NCBI GenBank assembly: GCA_964016885.1
Contig: OZ024742.1
Span: forward strand, 324,880,001 to 324,944,000
DNA from: Eledone cirrhosa
Lineage: Eukaryota
Reading direction: 5' to 3'
Length of the DNA stretch: 64,000 nucleotides
The notes under the pieces are model-generated. The model did no database searches. It was not told the origin of the DNA and saw only the letters and a program-made list of their open reading frames with translations. Numbering within the stretch: position 1 is the first letter of the stretch; each line of letters begins with the position of its first letter. Below are positions 37,913-60,976 of the stretch, one piece after another. Position numbers and translations under genes: made by a program.

Positions 37913-37996
37913 ACCCTTACCGCGCGGTTTCAAGTCTCAAAATAAATGGATAATCCATGCGGAACACTATTGAGAAGGAGACTTTCATCAGAGGGT
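37913..37996 (-). ncRNA. Type-I hammerhead with canonical core, long loop II and 8-nt palindromic stem III
   Basis: ACCCT-CTGATGA-AAGTCTC...GAGACTT-GAAA-CCGCGCGG-TA-AGGGT. Confidence 0.85.
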
Positions 37997-38208
37997 TCTT
38001 CTCAATCGGAGAATATAAAATTCCCGAGTTCAAATCACGAACTGGCACCATACAGAACTGTTCCCGGAAGAGAGTGTATGATCAAGAAACAATCTTGTCT
38101 AGTGCCGTGTGTAAAGATAGAAGGCAAGGGCGGAAAGGTCAATGTCCTGCCACTAGAAATAGCAGCAATTGAAACGACCAAAATGTTATCTCGACCTTAA
38201 GAGAGATT

Positions 38209-38320
38209 AATAATTGTTTCTACTTTTGGCACAAGGCCAGCAATTACCCAGTAGATTACTGGTACTTTATTTTATCGACCCCGTAAGGATGAAAGGCAAA
38301 GTTAACCTCGGCGGGATTTG
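38209..38320 (-). mobile_element. 5'-truncated SINE
   Basis: 3' half of the common SINE; GAGAGATTAATAAT is repeated on both flanks. Confidence 0.8.
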
Positions 38321-38375
38321 AGAGATTTGAGAGACAAGAGAGATTAATAATAATAATAAAGTATGTTACATACTT

Positions 38376-38413
<38 letters not shown>

Positions 38414-38417
<4 letters not shown>

Positions 38418-38972
38418 TGGCTGCCAACTCGTTTTCGAGTACGGCCACTACTTTATATCCATGTAGGAGAACCCCTACTGATGCGCTGAACGAGTGACTT
38501 TTTAGTCCAGCCAGCGACTTGAAAACTCTGGTACAAAGACTACACTTGTGACAATTATTGACACATAGTGTTGGGCCCATGGTACCATGTGACGACAAGT
38601 GCAGAGAGATCTCCAGATATAAAGCAATGCCTGTGCCGTGAAGCTTTTATAGTGAGCAAAGGCACTGCACAAAGCCAGTCCCACTCTCTTAACCAAGATG
38701 ATATTTACCAAAAAGAAGAACAAGTCAACATCATTGGATACCATCAGGGTTGCAGGTGTTATATCAGAGTTTTCCTTCTCCTAGAATTCTGCCTTGACAA
38801 AGGCTAAGGGGTCATCTCTCCCGGTGATTTTGGATGGCCATTGACTCTTAAGAGCTCCTTTGCCCTTTGACAGGTTTTGTTTTTAGTCCTGCAGGATGTC
38901 CAAAGTCACCCTCCTCACCAAGAAACCTTGGTGGGGTTGCCAGTTTAGTCGCCAACGACCCGACCATGAGAC
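38414..38972 (-). mobile_element. Bipartite RTE derivative, near full length, in (TA)n
   Basis: Reverse complement of about 33811-34372. Confidence 0.85.
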
Positions 38973-39002
38973 ATATATATATACACACACACATATATAT
39001 AT

Positions 39003-39071
<69 letters not shown>

Positions 39072-39588
39072 ATGTATATGCATATGTGTATGCAGGTTAT
39101 CCGATGATATATGGCAAAGGAAAACATGAAAAATGCTCAATCTGGGACAAGAGACCATATTTAGATGTTTACTTAACTTGTATGTGTGACATTAACATTC
39201 GAGGTCCAGTTTTGGTTGACACAGTGTAGGGAAGTAACACTAACACCGGCCTCTCTCATCAACCACTAAGACGCGCAAAGACAATTGAAAAAAAAACAAA
39301 ACATTACTTTCTTACTAGTGTTCTTACTTCATGAACAGTCCCAATCAAAAACAAGGGAGTTAACTACCAATTCAGAAAATTATAATGTTACACATCTGTA
39401 TTAAAGAAAATATGGCAGTTAAGTATGTATATATGTGTATGTATAATATCTGTGTAATTTACTATTGTAAGTTTTTGATAGAAATTAAATGAAACCGTTA
39501 CAATGCGGATAAAATACACATATCGTAAACAGTTGACTTGCATTGCTAAGGGAAGTAAATTCCATTAAGAAATTTGAAAAAAGGGACG

Positions 39589-39680
<92 letters not shown>

Positions 39681-41017
39681 CATATATATGAAGGTCATGT
39701 AGTTAGGTATGAATGTGTGAAGCCTCGTGATTAACTTAATTTTGTAAATTTTAAATCTCTTGTTAAAAGCTTTTTATAAAAAAACTATCCAAATACCAAA
39801 ATATACGAGGATCTTCGTGATGTGGTGTATGTACTATGCTTGTGTACGGGGGCATTTGTTATATGTCTATTTTATGTGTGTATGGATGACTGAAAGTACG
39901 GTTATGGAAGATTTATCAGATCGGATGAGGGGACATTTTGAGGTATGGGTTTCCAGTTTGAGAGAAGGTGGTCCTTAAGGTGCAAGAATCTTCTGAAAAC
40001 CTTAGTCTTAGAGTTTAGATATGATTTGGTGAGAAGAAATCTTATAAAATCCTATTTTTCTCTGAGATTGAGCGGGCATCTCTTTTATGTGGCGGGGATT
40101 TTTCGAGCTATCTCCATGCTATTTTTGCTGTACACCGTTCTTTATCAACTGTCAGACATTTTTGCCAGGGCTCTGCTGATCTTCTTATTGAGATGCCTGA
40201 AGGAGAAGACATGCAAGTAGAAGCTTTGTTTAAACGAGTCCTGCACCATGCCAACATACTTCCACTGGTTTATAATTGGTTGTAGTTGCTATATTTAATA
40301 TGTCGCGCATAGATTGTTATAATTGACAGTCATCCTTTATCCAACGGGAGCAATCTGGATTTACCTTTGGTTTGTTCTTTGCAGTCATTTTGGATTTCAT
40401 AGATTGAGGGCAAGAATAATATATCCTCACCGAGCGGCGATTGAAGATCTTATTATACCTATGTTGTGGGGAAAGTGCTCATCAATTAGATACAAATATT
40501 TATTACCTACATCTGTCTTTACATTAAGTGAGTAGAGGGAGGAGGAGGCGAACCCGATTAGATTCACTTTTCATTTAAATTTTTAGGTTTAGATTGATAA
40601 TAAGTTACTTATCTAAGGAGCTGTGAGTTATTGATACCAAGATAATATTTCTCGTAACATTGAACCATGCGAAATAATTCTATTTTGAGTAGTAACCCTT
40701 CTAATTGAGTTATTGTTGCGTTGTTTTTATTAATGTTAAAGGTGCGTTGTGATATGTAAATTACTCTTTTCAGTTGTCAAAATGTTATTTCTTTCAGATA
40801 ACAAATACCATGAGTCTGTCTTCTTAAGCCAGTTTTTGTTTCCTTAATTGTTTGCATTTTGTGATATGTTCATTCACAGGTTTCTTTAGGCTGTTCCGGC
40901 TACTGCAAATATGGAAGCCATATTCATGTAAACACACATACACACACACACGCACACAAACACAAGCACACCCCACACACACTTATAGATACACACACAA
41001 ACATACACACACATATA

Positions 41018-41061
<44 letters not shown>

Positions 41062-41244
41062 CATACTTTTCTGTAAATAGAACAGCTTTTGTTTGCTTTA
41101 GGTTTTGAGGTGAATACCCTTGCATTACAGAATCCACTGATTGCATAATACTCAAATGAAAACAATGCCATCCATTAAAATTTGACAAGTTTTTCCCAGC
41201 TAATTGAAGATAATTTGGCATGCTACAATGTACAACGACAACTA

Positions 41245-41385
41245 ACATTAATGATGATGAGGATAAAAATCATGATGATGATGATGGTGTTGATGAGGAT
41301 GATGATAAGGATGAGGATAATGATAATGATGATGATGATGATGGTGGTGATGATGATAAGTATGATAATGATGATGATGACTATT
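41245..41385. repeat. (GAT)n-rich low-complexity repeat
   Basis: Directly visible. Confidence 0.9.
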
Positions 41386-41959
41386 ACAATGTCAATAAGT
41401 CTTTGTACTCATTATATTTTTCCTCTCGACGGAAATCTTTAGTAAAAAGCGAATGATTTATCTGCTCAGGGTGAGAAAAAATCATAATATATTCAAAGAG
41501 GGCATCAGATGAAGGAGTCATTACAAAGACAATTTATGTGAAGGCGGAAGTTTACATAGGGAAGATGAAATGTAGGTAACAAATATACGTAGTATACAAT
41601 TAAATATGCACAGAAAACCACTAAAAAAGGCATTGAGTCCTCCAAGCTACAGAGAGCATAATACCTGAGGCTAAATGAGGACCACGAATCACCTTGACAA
41701 CACAGGCCAAGTGTCCTCTCACAACTATCTTTGCTGGACCTGCTGAAAGTTGAGTCATTCACGCTTTTCATTTTTCACAATTTACTAGCGGAGAGCACTT
41801 ACCTCTCCACCATCACTTTCGTTCCAAGCAAAACCTGAAAAATTCGGTGAGAGCTTCACTGAAGAGAAAGGTGTCTTACTTCAGCTTTGTATATTATACA
41901 ACCTCTTTCACTATAAGCACCAACTGTAAGTATAGTGCACACACTTCAATAATAAAGGA

Positions 41960-42545
41960 GGATGGTGGGACGAGAGCGAGAAAAGGTTTTCAACATACCT
42001 AGCAATTCACAAGTGCCCTCTCCCAGGTGATGTCCTTTAAAGCAGGCCCATTTTCTCATGCCATACTCGCCTCACTCATCAACCTTTCAACAAATTGCTT
42101 TGAAGGCAACACATCCCTATCCACGCTGGTCTTCACCTTTCAAACGCGTCCACCATACAATCTCTTTCGCCATGGCCGTCAGATAGACAAAAACAGCCTT
42201 CCCTTCCTGACTAAAGAAGGTTGCAAGATGACCTTGACGATGAACTCAGTTGATAGTCGGATCCCTCCTACATGTGATAGTAGGTGTTAGATACAAATCC
42301 AGAAATCAGCGATTTTCGGACATTGGACGAGTGCGTGCATTTCGGATTCGTCATCCTGAGTGCATCTCGGACACGCCCGGCTAACGGCATTTACATGCCT
42401 GTAGAGTTTGCCTCGGGCCAGCAACTCTCACTGACAGCACTGCCATAACAGGGGATTCTGGAAGTCATCCATGAGCCCTGGACTGAAAAGCATCTGCAAA
42501 AGAATGGCTAGTTGATTTTCAGTGATCTTTAGACGCTCCCCAACG
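41960..42545 (-). pseudogene. L1/Tx1-like LINE C-terminal fragment (zf-RVT)
   Basis: Minus strand LLARGKLYRH..SRACPRCTQDDESEMHALVQCPKIADFW, then AKEIVWWTRLK; CCHC zinc knuckle with stops. Confidence 0.7.
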
Positions 42546-43894
42546 ACATTTCTTCAACTATATATCATAAACCATCGACGTATGCAAAATTAATTAAGAT
42601 AATGTTAATTAACCTCAATATATCAGTCAAATCTTATGTTAAACAAGAATGTCCTTTATAATGTGTCTTCTAAAGAATATGTATATATATATGCACACAC
42701 ACACATATATATGTTTATACATATATATATGTGTGAACTTGTATTAACCTGAAGTTATCAATATATTAAGTACTTTTTGCCATATTGTTTTGATAGATCA
42801 ACAAACGAATAAAAAAAGATTGGAAATATACCAATAATTAAAACAAATTTTGGAACATGACAATTATGGAGGAAAACTAATGCAAGGTTGAATAAAATTC
42901 AATAGTAATAATTGGATTAAGGATACTATATTTACACATTTCAAGGCGTGAAGAAATTAATTCAATAAGATGCCATAGGCCAATATGTTATTATTATTCA
43001 TTTTGCACAATTCTTGGCAATGATGGAAATATCGATAGAAATGAAATTGTCTTATTAATGGTAATGAGGCAATTTACCATTTGTTATTATATATATCGTC
43101 TTGTTTTAAAATCATGATCTTCCCATAAAAAGTCCATAAAAAGCATTATTTACTGGTTTATTCTGGTATTCCTTTGCGTGCTTAAATCATTGGACTACAA
43201 TGATACCTTCGAGGATTTAGTAAATCACATCAAACGCAGCCCTTATTACTTTTTAAGTCTAAAAACTATTTTATTCCACATAAGTTTGATTATTAACTCT
43301 GTTATGGTGATATAAACGAACAGCACACCTTGTTGTGAAATCGATAGTGTCTAAATCTGAAGAGGGGATAGGCTCTGTCAGGTTTCAAATGACTACAAAG
43401 ACGCCCATACGAGCTCATATATATATATGGAACCGGTAATAGACAATTATTAAATATATGTATGAATGTATGTTTGTGTGAAAGTATGTGTGAATGTATG
43501 TATATTTGTGTGAAAGTATACCCTCCCATCTCCAATTAAACCGAACGCTATCATGGCTATGTGTGTGTTTGTGTAAATGTATATGTGTGAATGTATGTAT
43601 GTTTGTGTGAAAGTATATGTGTGAATGTATGTATATTTGTGTGTAAGTATGTATGTTTGTGTGAAAGTATGTGTATTTGTGTGAATTATGTCTGTGAGAG
43701 TGTATTTTTATAAGTTTGTGTTTGCGCAATTATAGTTATATTCTCATAATAGTTATATACTCATATACATATAGATGCATGTATGTGCACAATCATACGC
43801 GTTAGGTGTAGAAAATCATCATCTCTATCTCTCTCATCACACACTCTCACTTTCTATATATACGGTAGTTGAAATGGAGGTGGTGGTGACGATA

Positions 43895-44094
43895 TACCGG
43901 AAGTGTAACTTTGAAAAGATGTCAATTTGAAATTATTTATTTTTACGAAATTATTTTTGTTTACGAAATTTAGTAGATAAATTATGTAATATTCATTCAT
44001 TATTTATTCAAAGTAATCCAACTTATTTTACTAACTGGATAAAAAAAACAAAAACGGACGCAATCCCGCAGACCTTCCTTTATTATAGTTTAGA
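43895..44094 (-). mobile_element. Non-autonomous Helitron-like 5' fragment
   Basis: Starts ATCTAAACTATAATAAAG on the minus strand; homologous to about 46020-46228. Confidence 0.45.
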
Positions 44095-44642
44095 TGTAAG
44101 TATAAACTTTGACATAAATATTGGAGTAAAGAGTCACAAACGGTCTCTTCACAAATTCTGCCGTGTCTGCGAAACCCCTGCATTCACCTTATCTCTAAAT
44201 AATCTAACAATATGAAATTACGCAACATCGGCGTTAATGAAACACCACTTCCGTACTTCCTTCCCTTGTATGGCCACAGAAAAGATATAGTATTGATGTG
44301 AGCCGTCGGAATCCTAGTGTCTCCCATGGAGTTACATTCCTCCTTGCAGTGTCACGTAATGAAAGTCATTATCTTCGTTGTTCACTGAAAGGCAACACAC
44401 TATGTATGCAGCATCAGTCCACAAAGGTATAATGTCTCACGATTTTAAGAGAATGATACTAGATAGTTGAATGCATCTACTTCACTATATTTTCTAAGCA
44501 ATATTAACCAGAATTTCATGAAAATAATAATACTATATAATAAATATGCTATTTTTAGATTACCAATGAATACATTTTCATGAATTATTTGAACATCGTT
44601 TTATATTCAGAAATTTAAATACTCTCTCTTAATCTAAAATAC

Positions 44643-44739
<97 letters not shown>

Positions 44740-44795
44740 ACCACATACACACACACACGCACACACACAGACACACACACGCGCACACACACGCG

Positions 44796-44830
<35 letters not shown>

Positions 44831-45407
44831 TAATGAGAACCCACAAAAAAGTAACACAAGTAATATTTCGATATTACATTATTTTACTTCACTTACTATT
44901 TTTATGTTCAACTTGCTACTTGGATAATACGTTATAAAAAATTGTGCTCCAAATTTATAGATTCCGAAATATTGATTCCAACTTTAAATTTAGTAGATGG
45001 AATATAGGAATGAAAATTAAATTATTGAATTATGAAAAAATATTTTAAACATATGTTCTGTTTCAGATTAACCTTGAAATTACCTTCATTCGAAGTTATG
45101 ATATTTTAGTATGCGCAGACATTTCTTAACAAATAAGTTCTGCGAAATATTGCTACTGGAAATATATATATAAAAATGCGACGAGTAAAAGGAAAAGGAA
45201 AGAAACAGAAAATAGGAAATAAGGAAAAAGTTGAAATGAGTTGAAGAAAGAAAATAGACAACAAAATAAAACATACATTCATAAATATGTGACAACTGCA
45301 ATTTAACTTTGGTATTATACAAATATTACAATTTTCATTTCTAACAGAACTAAAAATATGAATGAGGAAAGCATAAACATGAACTCTTGTAATATTAGTA
45401 ATTTTTG

Positions 45408-46338
45408 GGAAGAGGCTATTTTGCCGGTGCCGGTAAAATAGTACCGTAGGCTATTTTGCCCGGAAGAGTGTCAGACACAATGCTTTGCAGCATGCAGTTG
45501 TGACCCTTTACGGTCTGAGTTCAAATCCCACCAAGATTAGCTTTATCTTTCCTTCTTACGGGGTGGATAAAATAAAACACTAGTAATGTACTGGGGTCGA
45601 TTTAATTGAGTTTCGCATCTCGCAAAATTGTTGGCCTTGTACCTAATTCAGAAAACATTATTATGAAGGCAGGTTATGTTAAAAATAACAAGACTCAGAT
45701 TTAAAATAAATTTATTTATTTTCACCACCAATTATTAATATAACAGGCAGAAAAACCACCCTTAGGGGGTGGTTTCCTGCTAGCGTGTTTAGTGTGCATA
45801 TTCATATTATACGCAAGTATATATACATGTAGGTATGATACATCAAATAAAATCGTAATTGACAATATACACAGAAATTGAACGAAGACTGTGTTACACT
45901 GTCTTATGTAACCAGTAACGTAATCCATGATACATTAAACAAAGACGATATTATATATAAACTGCATTAGGCGAAAATTAGTGACGGAAATATATGAATG
46001 TTTATTTAAGCGAAGGCTAACCGGAAGTGTTGACATTTGAAAATTTTAAAGAAGTGAATCTTTAAATAAGCAATAAAATATATTTAATCAACAGCCACGT
46101 AATTCACTAGATAAATTATGTGATATTCATTCTTTATTTATTCAAAGTAACCCAACTTATTTTACTAACTGTATTAAAAGAAATAAACCGTACGCAGTCC
46201 CGCACTCCTTACTTTATTATAGTTTAGATTTAAACTCTGACCCAGACCTTATCGCTAAGCCAAACCAAACACTAATACAATCTATTTTTACCGGCAAACT
46301 AGCCAAAATTACTGGGACCGGCGAAATAGCCTATTCGG
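45408..46338. mobile_element. MITE-like element containing a nested SINE (about 45465-45660) and a Helitron-like piece (about 45742-46227)
   Basis: Imperfect TIRs AGGCTATTTTGCCGGTGCCGGTAA and TTACTGGGACCGGCGAAATAGCCT. GC hairpin AAACCACCC..GGGTGGTTT with CTAG at about 45754-45783. Confidence 0.45.
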
Positions 46339-46417
46339 TAAAAACATTAAAAACTCATCTCCACAGGTATTGCAACGTATAAAAAATTCGGTTCCAATGT
46401 TCTTCCTGCATTTTACA

Positions 46418-46598
46418 TAATTGTTTCTACTTTTGGCACAAGACCAGCAATTACTCAGTGCATTACTTGTTTTATCAACTCCTTAAGGATGAAAGGCAAA
46501 GTTAACCTCGGGTGATTTGAACTCAGAACGAAAAGGGACATAACTCTATGCTGCAAAGCATGGCATGTGACACCCTACCGACACTGCCAATCCACTGC
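46418..46598 (-). mobile_element. tRNA-derived SINE
   Basis: Same family as 436-630. Confidence 0.8.
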
Positions 46599-46799
46599 CC
46601 TAATGGAACCGCTAACTACAGTCTACCCCTTTATATTCGTAAAGCAGAGTGGGTTCAAATGAGAGAAAAGAGCAATCAGCACATAATGTCGAAAATGTTA
46701 CTATTCCTTGGTGTATCTCAGATGTTATCAAACACATTTCATCTGAAACAGCTAGTTGTATTTACGACTAACAAATCGATTGGTAAAATAAATGAAAGG

Positions 46800-46833
<34 letters not shown>

Positions 46834-46870
46834 ATTCACAAGAATCAAAGCAATGTTCAAAACATTTATT

Positions 46871-46917
46871 CACTTACAATTGTTTCTTCCAAACCTGGGC
46901 TTGGTGTCTTCGGAGCA
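46871..46917 (-). ncRNA. Minimal hammerhead, CCGAAGA core
   Basis: TGCT-CCGAAGA-CA-CCAAGCC ca GGTTTGG-AA-GAAA-CAATTG-TA-AGTG. The sister copy at 49509-49555 has CCGAACA. Confidence 0.65.
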
Positions 46918-46944
46918 ATTTTTAATGTTTGTACATATAATTGA

Positions 46945-48174
46945 CTTCCCAAAATATATACACCTTTTCATAAACCTAACGAAAAACTAATTTATGTAGA
47001 TACCAAGTCTAACCACCCTAGATCAATATTAAACTCTATCACTAAAGGAATATCCAATAGAATCTCTAATCTATCTCATAACGAAACCATATTTAGCAAT
47101 AATTCACAATTCTATAATCAGGCATTAGCTAAATCAAGTTATAATAATGAGATTGAGTTCCTACCTATAAAAACACATAGTTACAACATTATTTCTCACA
47201 AAATGACCATGAGGAAAAATAGTAATAGGGGTAATAACCACACTCACACTAAAACGAAGGGTAGCATCAAACGCAACTCGCACCAGAGAAGACAGCAAAA
47301 TACTGTAAACGGAAATACCTCAATAGATATAAAAAACAAAAATAGAAGAAGAACTAATACATTTTTCAACCCCCCTTTCAATCTAAACGTCTCTACCAAC
47401 CTACCTAAGGCTTTCTTCTCAATTCTGGATAAAAACTTCCCATCTGGCCACAAGTACCATAGCCTTATAAATAAAAACACCATTAAAATCTCCTACTCTA
47501 CCACACCTAACATAGCATACCACATAGCTAATAGCAATAAAAGAAAGATTAATACTTACTTTCAACAAACTAAAACACAGCAGGGGGTAAACTTTCAAAA
47601 CAACATAACTTCAAACCCTGATATCAATAGTAATAATAGTAATAACACTAATGAAATCAATATCATTATGAACGACTACCCTCATAGCCCTAGCAACCAG
47701 ACTTCTACACAACATAATAACCGACAGGATAACATCCAAAATAAATGTAACTGTAGATCTAATAGAACCTGCCCTTTGGGTAAAAACTGCTTAATCAAGG
47801 ACATCATTTACTCATGCACGGTCAGAACTAGCAACTCTTCTGAAACATATATAGGCTCTACTTTGAACTGCTTCAAAATGAGATACAACTCACATCTCCA
47901 TTCTTTCAGAAAACACAATCTAGCCAACTTCACTTCACTATCTAGCTACATACACTATCTGAAAACTAGGAATAGATCATATACACTTCAATGGGAGGTG
48001 GTAGGTAGGGCTGCATCGTATAAACCACCTAATACATTCTGTAACCTATGTCTACTAGAGACCCATACTATAATCTTTTCGAATCTTAACCTGCTTAATA
48101 AAAAATCGGAAGTGTTTGCGTCGTGCCAACACCGCTTCCGACTCTCTTTCCAAAATGTTAAACCTAGTATATAA
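46945..48174 (+). pseudogene. PLE RT thumb, linker and GIY-YIG; open frame, 5'-truncated
   Basis: The frame is open upstream of 47203 (YTPFHKPNEKLIYVDTKSNHPRSIL..ISNRIS..YNQAL), then FNPPF, CNCR..CPL, YIGST, CNLCLLE and LNKKSE. Confidence 0.9.
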
Positions 48175-49724
48175 CAATGTAAGATTTGAACTCATCACCA
48201 CTTTTAGCACTGCACCTCAAGGGCTTGCCTTCAACCACGACACACACTCTCTGATCGACCATTTCCTCTACGCAAATCATTCTATTTATAACTTTAGAAC
48301 CTAGAAATATCACCACCCTTTAATATAATTACTTTTGATTACTTATAATTATATAGGAATTGAAATATAATACAGTTTATATAAACTTTAAATATTAGAT
48401 ACAACAATGAATTTGTAATTAAATGTATAGAGTAATAACATAGGGAATATATAGGATTAATTTATTAACATAAGGGATTTGACTAACTTATATGCAATAT
48501 TGAACAATGAATTAGATATGAATTATATATGCATTTATAACTAAATGGATAGATTAATGACATTGTATATGGGGGATAAATTTGTTTACTCAAGAGATGT
48601 ATCTAATTTTATCATGCAAACAGCCGTACGCTGTTCCATAGCTTACCTAAGGTTATGTAAACAAAAATCTAATTGGACCTTTAATATGTTTTGAGAGTAG
48701 ACTGTATTTAGAGTGAATTTGATATAAAGATATAGCACTTTGGGTGGTAATTCAATTATAGCACTATATAATAAGGAGTAAACAACTTCCTATAGATACC
48801 TTTAATACATTATGAGAGAGCAGACTTAATTTAAAATTAAATATAAATATATACCCTTTCATATAAGGGACTCAATTGAGGCACCATATAATGTATGTTA
48901 GAACAATGAATTTAGTTATGAGAATCAGCTAGTTACCTCCCCTTACGCATTAGCTCCCCTTAATTACATACCTACTTCCGGATAATAAACCGCTATAAAT
49001 TCTCACAGCCGAAAGAACCTATTCTATAAATATGGATTAAATAACACTAAGCTCCAATACGTTACAATCCTTTACTGCAACAAACATTCAATACGAATAC
49101 ATCGTAACATATATGATGAATGTGAAAACATACTAATTTGATCTATACAAAAAATGCCCCCCACCCCCACTGCAACCACCATAATACCCTTGCTTACCCG
49201 CTTAAGGTGCTTGTATTACATACAATACCTTGCCACACAATACTCTTATATAAATGAGACACATTTGCATGCTCCATGTATGACTAACGCCTACACTTTC
49301 TACTAGATCTGATTATTGAACTATTCTCCTGCATTATCTGTGTTATCTGTCGCATGTATTTTAACTTTGATTTTAATTTGAATTACTGTATAAATATAGT
49401 ATAGTTTAATATATGTCGCTCCACACTGTACATCAATATATATATATATGTATCTGTATGTCTCTTGCTTTGACTGAGAAGTCAATTATATGTACAAACA
49501 TTAAAAATTGCTCCGAACACTCCAAGCCCAGGTCTGGAAGAAACAATTGTAAGTGAATAAATGTTTTGAACATAGCGTTGATTCTTGTGAATTCTATATA
49601 ACTGCTCTGTAGAACAACTGATGTTATTACATTGAGCTATTTATCTTACTGGTAATAAGGTAGTAATAAATTACTGACCTTCCCTGTTTATAGTTTAAAA
49701 TATACATAACTATAAATAGTATCC

Positions 49725-50057: not shown

Positions 50058-50167
50058 TGTATTGATTGCGTATATTAGACAAAAACAGACTTACACACAC
50101 ACTCACAGACAGAGACACAGACACAGACACGTACACACACACGTAAACACACACGTACACACACACA

Positions 50168-50244
<77 letters not shown>

Positions 50245-50257
<13 letters not shown>

Positions 50258-53200
50258 GGTAGATGTCTGTCTGTGTGTGTGTGTATGATTTTTATGCCAT
50301 ATTTCTCTACCGATCTTGATGATTTATTTTTCCTATGTGCTCCAAATTTACCAGGGCAGGTCAACGTGTAATTACTTTTGCCAAACATTTCCTGCTTCTA
50401 TGAAAGAGAATCGATAAAACTAAATACATGCTGTAACCCTCTCTCTTACACCCTTCATTCCTCTCACTACCCTCAATCTCCTCCGCAATTCTCTTAAAAA
50501 GATTACTGCATCCGTCTCTGAAGGAACGCGACACAAACTTTGATAAATCTCTCTCTTACACGCTTTCATTCCTCTCACTACCCTCAATCTCCCCTGCAAC
50601 TCTCTTTAAAAGGTTACTGCCTCCGTCTCCATTACAGTTTAGAACGACGACAAATCTTCTCTCTCTATAATAGATCATTCACCTCTTCGTTTGTCATACA
50701 TCAAATATCAAAATTTAAAAGGCCGATAACACAAAATACATATTGCTCTCTCAAAGTTACATTTTACATCAAATAACAAATATTCCAAAGCAACAGATGA
50801 TTTTATAAAACAACAAACGTAACAATAACGACGCTTAAGCGTTCATTTACTTGAATTTCAACAAATACATTATATTTTATTGTTATCCTTTTTGTAATTT
50901 TTCTTTCTTTGTTTTTCTCAATATGAGACAAAAAATTTATGAGAAAACTTTTTTAACCAACGTCCGATTTCGATGATTTATTTTCCAGTGTGCTCGAAAA
51001 TAACGCCCCAGTTTACGCTCTTTTGTGCTATAACTCAGACAGGCTTGGCTTACAGGTTTGACCTATTATTTGACGTGCATTCTTCATAGATCTTACTTAG
51101 TACTCACTTTCCACTTACTCACCGTTCAATTGAAAGTTTTGGCTACTCCCCCTTTCATGCTCCATTACCTGCATAAATATTTACGTGTTCGGTCCTGTTA
51201 CAATATAGTACTCACTTTAAACTAATTCAAAATTCATTTGAAAATTTTCGCTACCAAACACATTCTTTGAATCTACGGTCATGTCACCCCAAAAAAGACC
51301 ACGACTTAGTCGCCAAACTAAAGCTGCTTCTGCTGCCAAACGAAGAAGAGCTACAGAGTTGTCCGTAGAAAAATTGACTCGGTTGTCACAAAATGCAACT
51401 CGAAATGCAATTACCCGGGCAACCGAGACAGAAAAAATAGAGGAGCATCCGCCTTTCCGGAAATGCATTTGAAACTGCAGCTGCACGTGCAGGCAAACTG
51501 ATGAACAACATTCTCGACGACGAAGGAAAAATGCGGCCTCCACCGCTGCGGCACGTGACGGTGGGGACGAAGAACACCGTTACAGTCGACGACAAAGAGA
51601 TGCCGCCTCAACTACTGCGTCACGTGCTGCCGAAGACGAAGGGCAGCATTCCAGACGTCAACGTACGGACGCCGCTTCAACAGCTTCCGTTCGCGCATCA
51701 GAGACTGCGCAAATTCAATTACAAAGGCTAAACGCCAACGCACTCCGCAGGAGAGCTAAACGAGGTACCCAGAGGATCAGTTGCACTCAGTGGTCTCATA
51801 AGGCTTTCCACTATGACACAACAGTAAACTATGCACTGATGCCAGAAGTTCAGATTGGATCCATGTCTGTCATTTGCCAATATTGTCGGGTAAAAAAATG
51901 GCCTGGGGAGACTTCAGGGATGTGCTGCTCTGACGGCAAAGTGAAACTGATTCCTCTACAGGAACCACCACAACCTTTGAAGTCTCTACTGACCGGTGCC
52001 ACAGCGGAGTCAGAACACTTCCTTCGATGTTCCAGGAGATACAACGCTGCCTTCCAAATGACCTCTTTCGGAGCTAACATCATACGCGAGGACGGCTTCA
52101 TGCCTACCTTTAAAGTTCAAGGACAAGTTTACCACAAAATCGGTTCGCTACTGCCCAGGACAGACGGACAGCCCCAGTTCCTACAGCTATACTTTGTCAC
52201 TGACTATTTGGACCACGTGGAACGACGCGCTTCAATTTCGCTTGGCACAGACATGAAAATTCTGTTGCAACTCCAGAGAATGTTGCACAAAAACAACAAC
52301 TACATACGCAGTTTTAAATGCGCATTGGAGGCTGCTCCGTTGCCAAATTTTGCTGTTATAATCAACACTGACAGGAAACCACCAGGCACCCACGCCAGAC
52401 GTTTTAATACTCCCACGTGCAATGAAATAGCTGTGCTTCTTCATGGAGAACAGTACAACAAGCGGGACATCATACTTCAGTGTAGGGACAATAGTCTGAA
52501 ACGGATCAGCGAGACGCAAAGGTCCTACGACGCATTCCAATATCCCCTACTTCTCCCATTCGGTGACGACGGATACCACTTTGGAATTCCTTTGTGCAAC
52601 AGCAACAAAACTGTTTCCTCTATGCAATTCTACACCTACCGATTCATGGTCCACGAATGCTGCTTTAACCAACTCCACCGTGCAAGAGTACTCTTCAACC
52701 AGCTTGTGTAAACGCGTGCGCAAAGATGGAATCTGAAAGGCTGTGCTACATAAGGAACAATCAAGCACGCCTTCGTTCGGACAGCTACATTCACTTACGG
52801 GATGGAGTAAGGAATGACGTCGATCCCGAGAACCTAGGAAAACATTGTATCCTTCCGTCGACCTTCATTGGGAGTCTCCGATACATGAGTGAACGCACAC
52901 AGGATGCTATGACGTACGTGCGTCTCTACGGGAGACCGGATCTCTTCATCACTTCAACATGCAACCCGTAGTGGAATGACAAAGGGCGTCAGACAGACAC
53001 GATCTTACGGCACGAGTCTTTCACTTGAAGTTGAAAAATTTGTTGAAATCCTAAAATCAGGTAAGGCCTTTGGACCTGTTAGGTGCTACGTATACACCGT
53101 TGAGTGGCAAAAGAGAGGCCTGCCACACGCTCACCTACTCATTCGGCTGATAACGAAAACCAACGCTAGCAGCATTGACAGCATCATTTCAGCAGAAATA

Positions 53201-56036
53201 CCCGACCCAAAATTGGACAGAGAACTCCACAACATCGTCACTGATCACATGGTTCATGGGCCATGCGGAAACGGTTTCAACATGAATTCTCCATGCATTA
53301 AAGAAAGAAGGTGCACCAAGAGGCATCCTAGGCCATTCCTCCGAGATACTCGGACAGGTGAGACGGTTTTCCATTACACCGCCGCAGGGAGCCAGCGGAC
53401 GGAGGAACTGTTTCGAAAGCACCACATCACAACGTCGACAAACGGTGGATTGGACCCTACTGCCCACTTCTGCTTAAATTGTTTAACGCCCACATTAACG
53501 TTGAATACTGCCACTCCATCAAATCAATAAAGTACGTCTGCAAGTATATCAATAAGGGGTCCGATGCTGCGTCCTTTGGTCTTACAATGGAGAACAACCG
53601 CGACGAAGTAACTCGATACCAAGTCGGCCGATTCATCAGCAGCAATGAAGCGTTCTGGCGATTCTTCAACTTTGCAATACACCATAACTAGCCCCCAATC
53701 AAACAGTTGGAGGTGCACCTTGTACACGGTCAAAGAGTCTACTTCACCGCCTCCACCGCTGCTGAGATAGCAGAGGAACCCAAGGACACCACACTTACGG
53801 CATTTTTTAAGTTATGCCTAAACGATCCCTTCGCCAATACCATCTTCTACTCTCAGGTGCCATCATACTACACATGGAACACAGACAACAGAATTTGGTT
53901 AAGAAGGGTGAAAGGACAACCCGTCGAGGGACATCCAGACATTAAAATGTCCCCTACCCTTGGGAGAGTGTACACCATTCATCCTAACCAACAGGAATGC
54001 CTTTATCTCCGCCTTCTACACCATGACGTGGTAGGACCGACAGCTTTCGACGATCTGAAAACAATCAACGGAGAGCTTTGTACTTCATTCCACGCAGCCT
54101 GCCTTAGACGGGGTCTACTAGAAGATGGCGCTCAGTGGGATGCGACATTGGCGGAGGCAGATACAATACGCTCAGCGTGAACTCTTCGGCAACTCTTTGT
54201 TGTGCTACTGCAGACATGCGAGTTAAGCGACCCTGCATCCTTATGGGACAAATACAAAGAGGACCTTTCCGATGACTACATACACCAAGGACAACTGCTA
54301 CTCCCTCATCCGACGTACGAATCAGCGACGAATTCTTCAACAAAGTTCTCATTGACATCGAGGACAAAATCCTAACTGCCGGCGGAAATGACCTTCCATT
54401 CTATGGACGACCAAAAGTTCAGCGAACGGGCTCCGACATACTTCCGACGGGCATAATTCAGGAAACTGCCTACGACGTCCACGCTCTCGAACTGTTCATC
54501 AACGAAAACGAGCCGAAATTGTTGCAGGACCAACGGCAGGCGTATGGCACAGTTTGCACTTCCATTCGTCAACGCAGAGGAGGTATATTCTTTTTGGACG
54601 CCCCAAGAGGAACTGGTAAAACATTCGTCAATAAACTCCTCCTCGCCAAAGTGCGACAGCAGAAAGGAATCGCCCTGGCTGTGGCTTCTTCTGACATTGC
54701 CGCAACTCTGCTGCCCGGAGGTAGGACAGCTCATTCCACATTTAAACTGCCATTCAACACGACTTCAGACGACACAATAACCTGCAACATCACCAAGGAC
54801 GCTGACAAAGTCGAAGTCTTGAAAATATGCCACCTAATTGTGTGGGACTAATGCACAATGGCCCATAAAGGGTCCCTTGAGGCGTTAGACAAGACCCTAC
54901 GAGACAACAGGGAATGCAACCGGCCGATGGGAGGAGTACCTCTACTGCTGTATGGCGATTTTCGACAAACTCTTCCAGTTGTCCCAAAAGCCACCAGGGC
55001 CGACACTGTGGGGGCTTGCATTAAGTCATCTCCCCTGTGCAGGAAGTGACAATCCTGACCCTCACAACAAACATGAGAGCCCAACTGCTCGGCGACCACT
55101 CAGCAGCCGACTTCTCAAAGGACCTCTTAACAGTTGGTGACGGCACTGCACCTTCAGATGCAGCTGGAGAAATGGCAGTCTCGCGAGTAGGCACCGTTGT
55201 AGACACTGTTGACGACCTCACAGCCTCTGTCTTTCCCGATATGGCGACCAACTACAAAAACACGAGTTGGCTATGCGATAGAGCCATATTGGCTCCCAAA
55301 AATATCTCAGTTGCAAAAATCAATGAGGACCTTCTGCATAATTCCTGGAACCTCCGTACCTACAAATCTGTGGACAAAGTGGTGGACAAAGATGAGGTTG
55401 ACGATTTTCCAACAGAATTCCTCAATTCCTTGGACCTCTCTGGACTGCCACCTCATGGGAATCCAGTCATGCTGTTAGGAACCTGGAACCACTACGTCTC
55501 TGCAACGTAGCACGGTTAGTGGTAAGAAACTTCCTGACGGATGTAATTGAAGCCACAATTCTCACAGGCTGCGCCGCTGGAGAAAACGTCTTCATACCCA
55601 GAATACCATTAACTCCATCAGGTACGGAATACCCCCGTACTCTGCGCCGACTTAATTCCCCGTTAAACTTTGCTTCGCGATGTCAATCAACAAGTCCCAA
55701 GTCCAAACTCTATCAATGGCAGGCCTGCATTTAGCCCAGCCGTGCTTCTCACACGGACAATTATACGTCGCATGCTCAAGAGTGGGATGCAAGCAGAACT
55801 TATTCATACTTGCGCCCAAAGGCAGAACAAAAAATGTGGTCTACATAGAGGTGTTGTGACTCCTCTATTCAGCACCACTGCAGTCTTGCCGGTTTGACAT
55901 ATAGTGAGTAGATGCTATTTTATATTTTCTAACTTACCCGTATTTACTTTCAATGCCTCAATATTCATAATTGAGTGGAAGCATTAAAAGTACTTTAAAG
56001 CAATTAAACTCCGAGCAACGCCGGGCACTTCTGCTA

Positions 56037-56037
<1 letters not shown>
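50245..56037 (+). mobile_element. Near-full-length decayed autonomous Helitron in (TA)n
   Basis: 3' hairpin CCGAGCAACGCCGGG followed by CTAG|T at 56034-56038. The 5' end merges into TA (ATATAAAACGGTAGATGTCTGTCTG), so the start is approximate. RepHel coding remnants inside. Confidence 0.9.
51281..55859 (+). pseudogene. Helitron Rep/Pif1-like helicase (RepHel) with several frameshifts and stops
   Basis: Zn-finger-like CQYC..CC; Rep motifs DLFITSTCNP, VEWQKRGLPHAH and KYVCKYINKG; helicase motifs FLDAPRGTGKTF, IVWD*, GDFRQTLPV, ILAPKN and FSHGQLYVACSRV. Confidence 0.95.
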
Positions 56038-56116
<79 letters not shown>

Positions 56117-56149
56117 TTAGACATATGCATATATATGTATATATAAATA

Positions 56150-56184
<35 letters not shown>

Positions 56185-56236
56185 TTAGACATATGCATAT
56201 ATATGTATATATAAATAAATATATATATATATATAT

Positions 56237-56810
56237 TGAAAGGATAACAAGGACGATTGATTACTCCTTCATTGCATTTATTGGTAGGTGACGCGCGTTT
56301 CGCCACTGATCAACTCAAGGTTCAATCTGTATCGATCCTACTCGACTCAATAATCGGCGGCTTGACGGACCCTTTACAATGCTATAAGAAAATGAAATAC
56401 ATGCTATGTGCTAAAGCCAGAATTTCTAGGGTTTGACAATATGAGTTATTTTGATTGGTGGGAAGGATCAAAGGGATGTACTGGTCTGTAGTTTTTGTAG
56501 GGGGGATGTGATGATGAGATGCTGGTGACGGTAGCTGGCTGTGATGGGCTGTCGTGTGGTGGTGGCGGGATGGTTTTGGCCTGTAGTGTATATGGGGGTG
56601 GATGTGATGATGAAATGTTAGTGACGGTCGCTGGCTGGGATGGGTTGTGGTGTGAGGTTAGTGGGTTGTCGGTAGACGGGTTGGCGTGTGTGGGGTGTGG
56701 CTGTGGTGTTGTTGTTTATGGTAGTGGCGTTTGTGGTGGATGTGTTGGTGGTGTCGAGTCCTTGGGGAGATACATACCTAGACACCCTTACTCTGACAAA
56801 TATGTTCTAT
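56237..56810 (-). mobile_element. PLE-type 3' remnant with degenerate hammerhead (56286-56372)
   Basis: GGGT-CCGTCAA-GCCGCCGAT...ATCAGTGGC-GAAA-CGCGCG-TC-ACCT; core is damaged; (TA)n flanks. Confidence 0.5.
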
Positions 56811-56967
56811 ATATATACATATATGTATACATGCGCATATATACTGATATATATACACACGAACACACCCACATACACACACACACACACCTGCGCCCAC
56901 ACATATCCACACACACATATATATCCATATGCATATATACACACATGTATGTGCATGCGCATATATA

Positions 56968-57723
56968 TAGAAGTGGTGACACAACAGTTAGTTCACCATA
57001 CCGAGAGCAATTGTTTCACCTTCGCAGATCTTCAGCTCGGGATGTGTATGGTTATAGGAACAGGAAGGACAACCGTACGAACGCGCATGCGCAGAAAGTC
57101 GGTCACTTCACACAGGCAATACTAGACTGCGTGCGGGAGGTGTAAGGGAGATAACTGCGAAAGTCCGGAAAGTTTTTAGGTGGAAAATAAAATTAAAAAA
57201 AATTAAAAATAAAATTACAAAGAATCAGTCCGGAGCCTTGTAGTTATGCAATAGATGTTTGGTGACGTATGGACAACGTGTGAAAAATTCACTTCTCGTG
57301 TTTAGGCAATCACTATTGCGTAATCACTAGTGCGTAATCTCGAGAAGTGAATTTTTCACACGTTGTCGACACGTCACCTAACATCTATTGCATAACTACA
57401 AGGCTCCGGACTGATTCTTTGTAATTTTATTTTTAATTTTTTAAACTTTTATTTTCAACCTAAAAACTTTCGCAATTATCTCCCTTACATCTCCCGCACG
57501 CATTCTAGTATTGCCTGTGTGAAGTGACCGAGTTTCTGCGCATGCGCGTTCGTACCGTTGTTCTTCCTGTTCCTATAACCATACACATCCCGAGCTGAAG
57601 ATTCGCGAAGGTGAAACAATTGTTCTCGGTATGGTGAACTAACTGTTGTGTCACCACTTCTACCTAACTCGTCCCTTGGACTGAGTGCTCTATAACAACG
57701 GTTTTTACCTTCTAATGTTCCAC

Positions 57724-57728
<5 letters not shown>
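56968..57728. mobile_element. Fold-back of PLE family A 3' ends (arms about 56968-57298 / 57341-57663, plus tail)
   Basis: Reverse-complement arms include the GIY-YIG stop region (HNYKAPD*) and HHRs at 57001-57040 (-) and 57590-57629 (+). Confidence 0.88.
57590..57629 (+). ncRNA. Minimal type-I hammerhead, U·U at the base of stem II
   Basis: CCGAG-CTGAAGA-TTCGCGAAGGT-GAAA-CAATTG-TT-CTCGG. Confidence 0.75.
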
Positions 57729-57764
<36 letters not shown>

Positions 57765-57768
57765 CATA

Positions 57769-57814
<46 letters not shown>

Positions 57815-57818
57815 CATA

Positions 57819-57864
<46 letters not shown>

Positions 57865-57867
<3 letters not shown>

Positions 57868-58090
57868 CAATTTGCAAACTTGTCTGTCACCACACATTAT
57901 GAACCTGAAGATTGCGAAAGCATGAAAGTACTTGTTCAATTAACACTTAACATTTAATATTCTACCATACTATTTCATTCTAAATTATAAAGGATTGTAA
58001 ATAAAACGAGTAAATCAGACAAAGTTGGAATTCCTTTTATTAATATAATTTTCTATACACAATCATACACACCCGTGTATATTTATCTAT
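57865..58090 (+). mobile_element. PLE-type 3' end with minimal hammerhead at 57900-57938
   Basis: TGAAC-CTGAAGA-T-TGC gaaa GCA-T-GAAA-GTAC-TT-GTTCA. An inverted relative lies at about 60262-60490. Confidence 0.72.
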
Positions 58091-58307
58091 TTTTATATAT
58101 ATATAGATACAAATATAAATTAGCGAGAATCGTATTTCGGCTTAGGAATTAACGAAAAACAACTTCCGAGATGTGTGGCAAGCGCTCAATGATTGAAATG
58201 AACCAGAGCTACAACATGCGTTAAAAACTAAACACACTGACAAGATGGTTAAACAATCATCCGCAAAGCCATAAAAACGACCAAGTAATTCGGGTCAATA
58301 TAATAAT

Positions 58308-58381
<74 letters not shown>

Positions 58382-58385
<4 letters not shown>

Positions 58386-58760
58386 TTAGTTATACTATTT
58401 ATGGTTATGTAAACACAAAACCTTAAGCAGTTGTAAGTATTTTACACACACCCTAAATAGTGGTAGGCAGTAATGTATTACTACCTTATTACCAGTAAGT
58501 TAAGTAGCTCAATGTAAAAACATCAGATGATTTACAGAGCAGTTATATGAAATATAAGAATCAAAGAACTGTTCAAAACATTATTGTGCTTACAGCTGTT
58601 TCCTCCAAACCGAGGTTTGGATTCTTCGGAGCAATTTATTAATGCATGGACAGTTATATGACCTCCTTTTCAGCCGAGAGACATACCAATACATATTCAA
58701 ACATTGATACATATTCAAACATTGTGGGTCAACATTCATTTGATTTTTGATTGTACCTAT
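58382..58760 (-). mobile_element. Third family-D PLE 3' end with HHR at 58587-58633
   Basis: Homologous to 24481-24830; TGCT-CCGAAGA...GAAA-CAGCTG-TA-AGCA. Confidence 0.82.
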
Positions 58761-58800
58761 TAATATAAATGTAATCTCGAAGTGTGTACTGCCACTCTAA

Positions 58801-58864
<64 letters not shown>

Positions 58865-58916
58865 TATATACATATATATATACATATATACATATACATA
58901 TATATATATATATATA

Positions 58917-60190
58917 TTGTTATACTTTGGGAGGGTCATGTTGCCAATAAGAAACACACGCACCAGTTGCTTTCACTTCAATTTATTATATATTTATAAA
59001 TTTACAAATTTATAAATTTATAAATTTCTGGTTGGTTGGTTGGTTCCACAACCAGATAGTTGTTTATATATAGTCCTAGTCCTTGTATAGGAGCAAATTT
59101 TGGAATAGAATAGAAAGAACTAGGAACAAGGCTAATAGAATAATCTCATGGTATGATAGCAATAAATACCAGAGTGTAATGTTCATCGATACAACCCCTA
59201 GAGGCGAACTAGCCTACAAATTTAGAAGGGCCTTAAATAAACATAAACTCAATATTAAGATAGTAGAAAGACCAGGTACCTCCGTAAAAACACTTATTAG
59301 CAAGACATACCCTTTTCAAAGACCCTCATGTATAGATAAGAAATGTATAACCTGTAAAATAAGCCCCCATATTAACTGTAAAACTAGAAATGTAGTGTAT
59401 AGCATAAGATGTACTGAAGGACAATGTAGAAACAAAAATATAGTGTACATAGGTGAGACAGCTCGTAGTATAGGGGAACGGATAAATGAACACTGGCGAG
59501 ACCTTCAAGATAATAAAGAATCATCTGTACTCTACCAACATGCTAAGATAGAACACAAGGGTAAATTAGAGAACATAGAAATAAAAATAGAATCTACACA
59601 CAGAAAAGATGCAATGTTTAGACAAATTACAGAGGCAATAAACATAAAAGAATTACAACCAAAATTAAATAGAAAATATGAGTGGAACAGCAACATCACA
59701 ACTTACAATTAAGGACAAAATGAAAACACACACACACATAGAACAAACAACCAACCAACAACATGTAAATAAATAAATAAATAAATAAACAAATAGATAA
59801 ATGAACATAAACACACACAGACACCCGGATGTGGGGCATGCGCAAACTGAGCACACAACACACACACAGAAACAAAATGGCGTAGGACAGAACAAAGGAG
59901 AGTCACAGAAACAAAGAAAGGAATCCCCAGTCACTGAAGAGGTCACAGAGTGTGTGACGAAAGGACTAGGACTATATATAAACAACTATCTGGTTGTGGA
60001 ACCAACCAACCAACCAGAAATTTATAAATTTATAAATTTGTAAATTTATAAATATATAATAAATTGAAGGGAAAGCATCTGGTGCGTGTGTTTCTTATTG
60101 GCAACATGACCCTCCCAAAGTATAACAATATCGGTTTCAACACACGATTTCAGATAAAGAATCTTGCTAAACAAATTCAGAAACGAAATA
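58917..60190 (+). mobile_element. 5'-truncated PLE (family C, related to B) with inverted 3' end; GIY-YIG ORF 59083-59712; HHR 59929-59973
   Basis: 58917-59084 is the reverse complement of about 59961-60128. NVVYSIRC..YIGETARSIGERINEH..LNRK. HHR AGTCA-CTGAAGA-G-GTCACA gagtg TGTGAC-GAAA-GGAC-TA-GGACT. Confidence 0.9.
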
Positions 60191-60261
60191 TATATATATA
60201 TATATATAGTAATAATAATAAATTTGAAGACTAAAATCCAATATACATATAAATAGATAGA

Positions 60262-60532
60262 TAGATAGATATACACGGGTGTGTATGATTGTGTATAGAA
60301 GATTATATTAATAAGAGGAATTCCAACTTTGTCTGATTTACTCGTTTTATTTACAATCCTTTAAAATTTATAATGGTATTATAATGAAATAGTATGACAG
60401 AATATTAAATGTTAAGTGTTAATTGAACAAGTACTTTCATGCTTTCACAATCTTCAGGTCCATAATGTGTGGTGACAGTCAAGTTTGCAATTTTCAACTT
60501 GAAAATTGCAAACTTCAATGTCACCACACATT
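60262..60532 (-). mobile_element. PLE-type 3' end with HHR (60424-60462) and a terminal palindrome of about 69 bp (60464-60532)
   Basis: Inverted relative of 57865-58090; AATGTGTGGTGACA..AAGTTTGCAATTTTCAA-C-TTGAAAATTGCAAACTT..TGTCACCACACATT. Confidence 0.72.
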
Positions 60533-60893
60533 CATTTAAATTATTGATTTATTGATATTTTATTTGAGTGACCCGAATCTTCCTGGTCGTTCTTTTTCGG
60601 CTGTACGGGTGATTTTAGGCATAATCTCTATGTGTTGGTAATTTAACGATGGTTATAGCTCTGATTTATCCAAATTATTGAGCCCTCTGCCACTCATATC
60701 GGATATTGTTTATCGTTAATTCGTGAGCTGATTTTCCGATACTCGATTATTCTATTATATATATATATATATATGCATATATATAAATATGCATATATAT
60801 AAATGTATATATATATATATATAAACAAGGTTTAGCAAATAATGAAAAAGTTTCAAAATAAATTTTAAAAAATTGACTTTACCTACTATAGTT

Positions 60894-60976
60894 ACCTTTA
60901 CCGATCAGTTTCGAATCCCAAAAATAAACGGAGGCCATACGGCTTTCGTTGCAAAGAAAGATTCTCGTCAGAAGGT
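60894..60976 (-). ncRNA. Type-I hammerhead, diverged relative of 37913-37996
   Basis: ACCTT-CTGACGA-GAATCTT...GGGATTC-GAAA-CTGATCGG-TA-AAGGT. Confidence 0.8.

What the first reader, a model, noticed from the sequence alone, without database searches (positions are those of the whole stretch)
37913..60976. Pseudoknotted long-loop-II hammerhead pair with compensatory changes
Seen: two diverged copies (37913-37996 and 60894-60976, both minus strand) keep a perfect core while stem I (ACCCT/AGGGT vs ACCTT/AAGGT) and stem II (AAGTCTC/GAGACTT vs GAATCTT/GGGATTC) covary. The 8-nt stem III palindrome also differs (CCGCGCGG vs CTGATCGG, the latter one base from perfect). In copy 1 the 5' flank ATTGAGAAG is perfectly complementary to CTTCTCAAT at the start of loop II. 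Copy 2 keeps TGAAAAGA/TCTTTGCA (7 of 8). Inference: a 5'-flank/loop-II pseudoknot supplies the tertiary contact, making this the best candidate for an active ribozyme in the window.
Basis: partly seen in the sequence, partly recalled or inferred. Interest (0 to 1): 0.7.

Follow-up and report, generated by a model that had tools for sequence, protein, structure and literature searches.

The report
Pseudoknot-braced hammerhead in animal retrozymes
The two motifs are mutated copies of a hammerhead (self-cutting RNA) motif carried by thousands of protein-free, roughly 485-base repeats in this animal genome; the motif is likely held in shape by a 6-7 base-pair pseudoknot kept in five sequence families and is predicted to cut best in pairs, but cutting is untested.

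Summary
They are 5'-truncated ends of a high-copy, non-coding, ~485-nt tandem-unit repeat that ends at (TA)n: a non-LTR retrozyme.

The "long loop II" is not a loop. Stem II continues through a 6x6 or 7x7 internal loop into a hairpin. The strand 5' of stem I is complementary to the 5' side of that internal loop in all five families examined, including two found by patterns blind to the flank and with different sequence.

The perfect 9-bp version occurs in 1 of 34 family-A copies; the family helix is 6-7 bp. Both window copies carry rare changes and are predicted to misfold, so they are poor test candidates. Stem III stays palindromic while changing, which points to cleavage as a dimer.

Retrozymes, dimeric stem III and pseudoknotted hammerheads are each in print. 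The internal-loop docking site, and a possible U-rich third strand, I did not find described. This scan has already noted pseudoknot-braced retrozyme hammerheads in other families of this genome. New variant of a known kind; cleavage and expression are untested.

The parts
37844..38214 (-). Copy 1 element: 5'-truncated unit (371 of ~486 nt) of retrozyme family A, ending at (TA)n 37796-37850
   Evidence: 92-93% match to a family-A monomer; TA array; genome relatives
37913..37996 (-). Type I hammerhead, copy 1: stem I 37996-37992/37917-37913, core 37991-37985, stem II 37984-37978/37938-37932, GAAA 37931-37928, palindromic stem III 37927-37920, predicted cut between 37918 and 37917 (GUA)
37998..38004 (-). 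Purine-rich pseudoknot strand of copy 1 (6-7 nt in the family; base 38005 extends it to 9 bp in this copy only)
37972..37977 (-). 5' side of the stem II internal loop, partner of the pseudoknot strand
37945..37971 (-). Apical hairpin that closes the internal loop (one pair broken in this copy)
37939..37944 (-). U-rich 3' side of the internal loop, candidate third strand (inference)
38004..38029 (-). Upstream hairpin that ends just before the pseudoknot strand (one pair broken by base 38005)
60817..60997 (-). Copy 2 element: 5'-truncated unit (181 of 485 nt) of the young family B, between (TA)n tracts
   Evidence: 97-100% match to a family-B monomer
60894..60976 (-). Type I hammerhead, copy 2: stem I 60976-60972/60898-60894, core 60971-60965, stem II 60964-60958/60919-60913, stem III 60908-60901, predicted cut between 60899 and 60898
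60977..60984 (-). Pseudoknot strand of copy 2
60951..60957 (-). 5' side of the internal loop of copy 2 (5 pairs, an A-G mismatch fixed in family B, then further pairs)
60927..60950 (-). Apical hairpin of copy 2 (one pair broken by a change seen in 2 of 46 copies)
60920..60926 (-). U-rich 3' side of the internal loop of copy 2

Best explanation
The two motifs are decayed, 5'-truncated genomic copies of a high-copy, non-coding tandem-unit repeat of the non-LTR retrozyme kind, whose type I hammerhead is likely braced by a 6-7-bp pseudoknot and is predicted to cut multimeric transcripts into unit-length RNAs, best as a dimer. Shown by sequence: stem I is open and 5 bp long; stem II runs through a near-symmetric internal loop into a hairpin; the bases just 5' of stem I are complementary to the 5' side of that loop. 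Inferred: this helix holds stems I and II parallel in place of the usual loop 1-loop 2 contact; two neighbouring units pair their palindromic stems III to make one stable helix; cut monomers are probably circularised and then copied into (TA)n sites by a Penelope-like element's reverse transcriptase and endonuclease, starting at a fixed point 3' of the ribozyme. The window's own copies are probably weak or dead.
For: Copy number: 1204 and 1365 first-look candidates for the two copies; 1566 intact-core pattern matches against 0 controls. Tandem units of 485-487 nt, 10 listed in one array. Units end at a fixed tail and go into (TA)n or the next unit in 148 of 159 copies. GC 36-38%; longest ATG frames 34-113 aa. 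Pseudoknot: in-register pairing 0.99, 0.85, 0.98, 0.92, 0.98 for families A, B, D, E, F against 0.19-0.80 when the flank is slid 1-3 bases. E and F were found by patterns that did not include the flank and use different letters; only 7 of 674 and 14 of 485 positions of their own monomers pair as well (joint about 3 in 10,000). In family-typical copies the flank strand and the 5' side of the loop are left unpaired by nested folding in A, B, D and E; in F the central U tracts are. Dimer: four different palindromes; 98 of the 100 listed matches keep a palindromic centre although it was left free (by eye); predicted duplex -13 to -20 kcal/mol against -1.5 to +1.5 for the hairpin. Hint of cutting in cells: 13 of 37 truncated copies start at or within one base of the predicted cut, about 5 expected if uniform (by eye).
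Against: No cleavage or RNA data. Family B, the youngest (98-99% identity), has a mismatch in the helix in 46 of 46 copies, and its duplex ranks only 78th of 485 positions; E ranks 31st of 674 by energy. Both strands are low-complexity, so slid controls reach 0.71-0.80. Families A-D are 79-85% identical and count as one lineage, leaving three. Copies examined are best-scoring or core-intact hits, not a random sample. In whole-monomer folds stem I does not form in four of five monomers. For 7 of the 13 cut-site starts, TA microhomology with the target could explain the junction, and 41 of 141 rows were not listed. No autonomous partner was found: no Penelope-like ORF was seen joined to a unit in 177 loci.
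Confidence: 0.72

Rival explanations
1. The same pairing is an off-switch or folding intermediate, not a brace: the flank pairs with the loop strand in a nested hairpin that buries the core before the 3' strand of stem II is made.
For: This nested fold is the predicted minimum for both window copies and for one family-D monomer. In family F the flank can also pair with upstream sequence.
Against: Family-typical A, B, D, E and F copies form stem II and leave the strands free. The register next to stems I and II is kept within one base across families, as a brace requires. Pseudoknots in this role raise rates 20- to over 100-fold in a tested type II ribozyme (PMC3088659, passages).
Confidence: 0.12
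2. The ribozyme works through dimer formation alone and the flank-loop complementarity is incidental, a product of purine- and pyrimidine-rich tracts.
For: Fixed mismatch in family B; high slid controls; the family-A and family-B flanks pair as well or better with the family-D loop.
Against: E and F keep full pairing with different letters at the same place; in E the purine/pyrimidine polarity is partly reversed.
Confidence: 0.08
3. The units are solo or amplified terminal repeats (pseudo-LTRs) of an autonomous Penelope-like element and not an independent retrozyme.
For: Penelope-like structure: (TA)n targets, fixed 3' end, inverted 5'-truncated partners. Retrozymes are reported to derive from pseudo-LTRs (10.64898/2026.07.22.740005, part 1 of 5 and passages).
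Against: No RT or GIY-YIG frame was seen continuous with a unit in 177 loci (5 window proteins as queries). Long pure arrays exist. The window's Penelope-like ends carry a different, minimal hammerhead.
Confidence: 0.08

Closest known systems
Metazoan non-LTR retrozymes (Cervera and de la Pena 2020, PMC7229834: passages and section 14 read, supplement not readable; Li et al. preprint 10.64898/2026.07.22.740005: part 1 of 5 and passages)
   Same: Tandem non-coding units of low GC, one type I hammerhead per unit, thousands of copies, co-occurrence with Penelope-like elements.
   Different: Units here are 485-487 and 674 nt against 150-450 bp reported. Stem I is open with no loop 1, stem II is branched, and a Watson-Crick helix stands where loop 1-loop 2 contacts are described. 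The mussel motif is said to lack the usual contacts; its figure could not be seen.
Pseudoknotted hammerheads (Perreault et al. 2011, PMC3088659, passages)
   Same: A helix of 4 or more pairs holds stems I and II; predicted for about 40% of representatives and for all three types.
   Different: The described consensus joins loop I to the tail of stem II in type II motifs. Here the 5' tail of stem I docks on one strand of an internal loop inside stem II. The passages I saw do not show this form; the figures were not visible.
Dimeric hammerheads with palindromic helix III (PMC4209133 passages; PMC3088659 Fig. S8 legend; PMC7229834 passages)
   Same: Short stem III capped by a palindromic loop, giving a 10-bp helix between tandem units.
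   Different: Combined here with a candidate pseudoknot; no extra base between positions 9 and 10.1 as in the minimal Penelope motifs.
ENE triple helices (review PMC7583470, passages)
   Same: [quoted passage not shown]
   Different: The purine strand lies upstream and is 6-7 nt, not a 3' poly(A) tail; G-C pairs interrupt it; family E has an A-rich third side.
Pseudoknot-containing hammerhead crystal structure (PMC11300833, passages)
   Same: Hammerhead core with a pseudoknot and a third strand along a helix.
   Different: There the pseudoknot replaces helix II in a permuted strand order; here helix II is ordinary and the order is type I.

Membership tests
Type I hammerhead ribozyme | CUGANGA and GAAA core with a UH triplet | tested here: met
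   GUA in all five families
Type I hammerhead ribozyme | Stems I (open), II and III around the core, with covariation | tested here: met
   stems change in pairs across families
Type I hammerhead ribozyme | Match to an Rfam hammerhead model | tested here: not met
   the 38-39-nt insert probably defeats the models (inference)
Type I hammerhead ribozyme | Site-specific self-cleavage | not testable with these tools
   indirect hint only: 13 of 37 truncated copies start within one base of the site (by eye)
Metazoan non-LTR retrozyme | Tandem units each with a type I hammerhead | tested here: met
Metazoan non-LTR retrozyme | Non-coding, GC below 50% | tested here: met
   GC 36-38%; longest ATG frame 34-113 aa
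Metazoan non-LTR retrozyme | Unit size 150-450 bp | tested here: not met
   485-487 and 674 nt; a reported range, slightly exceeded, not a mechanistic criterion
Metazoan non-LTR retrozyme | Expressed as linear and circular monomer RNA | not testable with these tools
   needs RNA data
Pseudoknotted hammerhead (Perreault 2011) | Four or more pairs linking the stem I and stem II peripheries, conserved | tested here: met
Pseudoknotted hammerhead (Perreault 2011) | Rate falls on disruption and returns on rescue | not testable with these tools
   bench assay
Minimal hammerhead of Penelope-like pseudo-LTRs | Unpaired base between positions 9 and 10.1 | tested here: not met
   stem II starts right after the core in all five families
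Minimal hammerhead of Penelope-like pseudo-LTRs | Lies in repeats flanking an RT-endonuclease frame | tested here: not met
   177 loci, window proteins as queries only
ENE triple helix | U-rich internal loop in a hairpin | tested here: inconclusive
   U-rich on both sides in D and F, partly in A and B, not in E
ENE triple helix | A-rich strand from the 3' end of the RNA | tested here: not met
   the purine strand lies 5' of stem I

The most novel reading that the evidence does not exclude
The brace is a triple helix: in families A, B, D and F the purine strand 5' of stem I enters a U-rich internal loop of stem II, pairing with one side and taking the other as a third strand (four U.A-U triples in a row in F, an ENE-like module reused as a ribozyme clamp), while family E, with reversed purine polarity, uses an A-rich minor-groove strand instead. 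This would be a natural hammerhead activated by a peripheral triplex, and it would work together with dimer formation.
Probability: 0.3. Interest if true: 0.65.

Novelty: new variant of a known kind. Interest (0 to 1): 0.42.

Why it matters
It gives a third way, beside loop-loop contacts and loop-tail pseudoknots, for a natural hammerhead to hold stems I and II together, with five natural sequence solutions ready for disruption-and-rescue tests. It also offers one explanation to test for retrozyme hammerheads reported to lack the usual tertiary contacts, and shows why Rfam models can miss thousands of such motifs in one genome. If the third strand is real, it links ENE-type triplexes to ribozyme catalysis. 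The element class itself is known.

Tried and rejected
Rfam: no hammerhead hit seen. Sequencing runs: no RNA holder listed. Runs X5 and X6 each gave one depth-2 contig nearly identical to family B, so no cross-species comparison was possible. The repeat finder was swamped by (TA)n. Sequence-only alignment misplaced family E and shifted the loop register, so pairs were counted from stem-anchored blocks instead. An extended distal stem I, and a second pseudoknot between the 3' flank and the U-rich strand, were considered; neither is kept in B, C and D. Phage and viral contigs: 120 pattern hits (scan stopped at its limit), 2 with stems I and II of 3 or more pairs, none with the pseudoknot. Autonomous partner: not found. 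Eight loci looked like tRNA-headed chimeras; none has a tRNA, and the 6 of 8 aligned are another repeat family with a different continuation after the short shared stretch, so all 8 were dropped from the 45 distinct loci before the count of 37. Families G and H have long stems II but extended stems I and are not alignable to this lineage. PMC5785218 and PMC2941103 were not held. The supplement of PMC7229834 could not be read; its mussel hammerhead figure may bear on novelty. Searches that showed no description of this architecture.
Full report
Observation. Both motifs are in the sequence as described. A descriptor needing the core, stem II of 5 or more pairs and stem I of 4 or more finds 2 in the window and 0 in 100 locally shuffled windows. 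Rfam gives no hammerhead for copy 1 and none among the 150 of 180 rows shown for the window.

What the copies are. The genome is 3.0 Gb and rich in (TA)n; my guess of a cephalopod is recalled and untested. Copy 1 has 1204 first-look candidates, and the 39 best other matches are 90-93% identical. Copy 2 has 1365, with full-length matches at 98-99%. Both are the 3' part of a non-coding unit of 485-487 nt that occurs as monomers, partial tandems, inverted pairs and arrays, with 10 units listed in one array. Copy 1 spans 38214-37844 and copy 2 spans 60997-60817. After the ribozyme each unit has a fixed tail that runs into (TA)n or into the next unit in 148 of 159 copies. GC is 36-38% and the longest ATG frames are 34-113 aa. 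This fits the metazoan non-LTR retrozymes (PMC7229834, passages and section 14), reported to be non-autonomous derivatives of Penelope-like elements (10.64898/2026.07.22.740005). The window holds Penelope-like frames (weak RVT_1 and GIY-YIG hits below the curated cut-offs), but none was seen joined to a unit in 177 loci.

More families. Patterns fixing only the core, loop length and stem III found further families: C (2 copies), D, E (674-nt unit) and F (611 pattern matches against 10 controls, 485-nt unit). A pattern for intact cores with the commonest stem III gives 1566 matches against 0 controls. A, B and D are 79-85% identical. E and F are distant relatives, matched outside or at the edge of the ribozyme (BLAST E 1e-9 to 1e-16 for E; 2e-7 and 0.004 for F).

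True anatomy. In family-typical copies of A, B, D, E and F, nested folding gives a 5-bp open stem I, the core, a 5-7-bp stem II, an internal loop of about 6x6 or 7x7, and an apical hairpin; an upstream hairpin is predicted in A, B, D and F. The upstream and apical hairpins change in pairs between A and B. The 6-7 bases between the upstream hairpin and stem I are left single-stranded, as is the 5' side of the loop (in F two of its bases can pair across the loop).

Pseudoknot test. Counting distinct copies (A 34, B 46, D 21, E 27, F 31), the flank pairs in register with the 5' side of the loop at 0.99, 0.85, 0.98, 0.92 and 0.98, against 0.19-0.80 when slid by 1-3 bases. One pair is G-C in A and A-U in D; E and F use different letters. 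Only 7 of 674 and 14 of 485 monomer positions in E and F pair as well, and these families were found blind to the flank. By duplex energy the native flank ranks 1 of 486 (A), 2 of 486 (D), 2 of 485 (F), but 31 of 674 (E) and 78 of 485 (B). Family B, the youngest, has an A-G mismatch in all 46 copies, so a perfect helix is not needed for spread. The copies counted are best-scoring or core-intact hits.

Stem III. The centre differs among A, B, D and F but stays palindromic; E has a central G-A tandem; 6 of 21 D copies carry a non-palindromic variant. With the two central bases free, 98 of the 100 listed matches are palindromic (by eye). A 10-bp duplex between units is predicted at -13 to -20 kcal/mol against -1.5 to +1.5 for the hairpin. 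This is the known dimer design (PMC4209133; PMC3088659).

The window copies. Copy 1 has base 38005 (1 of 34), a break in the apical stem (3 of 34) and an 8-nt deletion after stem I (1 of 34). Copy 2 lacks the 5' arm of the upstream hairpin and has changes in stem III and the apical stem (each 2 of 46). Both are predicted to fold with the flank paired to the loop strand in a nested hairpin that loses stem II (z -0.26 and +0.50), unlike family-typical copies (the program cannot model pseudoknots). They are poor candidates for assay.

Hint of cutting in cells. By eye, 13 of 37 start at or within one base of the predicted cut, about 5 expected if starts were even over about 31 positions; the next cluster has 5. 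Seven of the 13 could reflect TA microhomology. This is suggestive only and was not computed by program.

Third strand. The 3' side of the loop is U-rich in A, B, D and F and grows with the 5' side (6x6 in A, 7x7 in B and D). In F it would give four U.A-U triples in a row, and its four U's show no variant shared by two or more of 27 copies while the apical stem varies at 6 positions. In E it is A-rich and the helix polarity is partly reversed. An ENE-like triplex (PMC7583470, passages) is a real possibility but rests on composition alone.

Comparison and verdict. Retrozymes, dimeric stem III and pseudoknotted hammerheads (about 40% of representatives; PMC3088659) are known. Docking of the stem I tail on an internal loop of a branched stem II was not found in searches, but key figures, one supplement and two papers could not be seen. 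Earlier unreviewed notes of this scan describe pseudoknot-braced hammerheads in other retrozyme families of this genome. PMC8557442 (passages) gives the (TA)n targeting and tandem or inverted structure of Penelope-like elements; PMC11167929 was seen as a listing only; PMC10085705 and PMC11300833 (passages) concern permuted forms, which this is not. Verdict: new variant of a known kind, interest 0.42; triplex reading probability 0.3.

Noticed in passing
G000 genome-wide; loci L151, L155, L158-L177: Two further hammerhead families (G about 80 nt, H about 67 nt) with long stem II, 6-nt stem III, GUC cut site and extended stem I; 2670 pattern matches against 9 controls.
   Followed up: partly
window 37470-37525 (-) and 59925-59975 (+): Minimal hammerhead-like motifs in Penelope-like terminal repeats, a few hundred bases to 1 kb from each copy; different from the finding's motif.
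   Followed up: partly
window 16845-18434 (-), 29998-32161 (-), 59080-59712 (+), 26387-27631 (+), 46945-48174 (+): Fragments of at least two kinds of Penelope-like RT/GIY-YIG frames.
   Followed up: partly
window 51473-55510 (+): Broken Helitron-like frames with a PIF1 helicase match, E 1.3e-27.
   Followed up: no
window 24651-26415 and 27496-29260: A 1765-nt near-perfect inverted repeat around a Penelope-like fragment.
   Followed up: no
window 38208-38321 and about nine other places: A SINE-like repeat abutting the 5' end of copy 1; the SINE label is recalled.
   Followed up: no
L335-L342: A separate (TA)n-flanked repeat family sharing about 20 bases with the retrozyme just after its cut site, with a hammerhead-core-like word on the opposite strand; no tRNA found.
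   Followed up: partly
unit junction just after the fixed 3' end, families A, B, D and E: About 70 nt after the insertion point look more conserved than the ribozyme itself; a candidate signal for the borrowed reverse transcriptase.
   Followed up: no
window 19305-19945, 33959-35212, 38367-38973: A 350-450-nt repeat family in partial tandems, not related to the finding.
   Followed up: no
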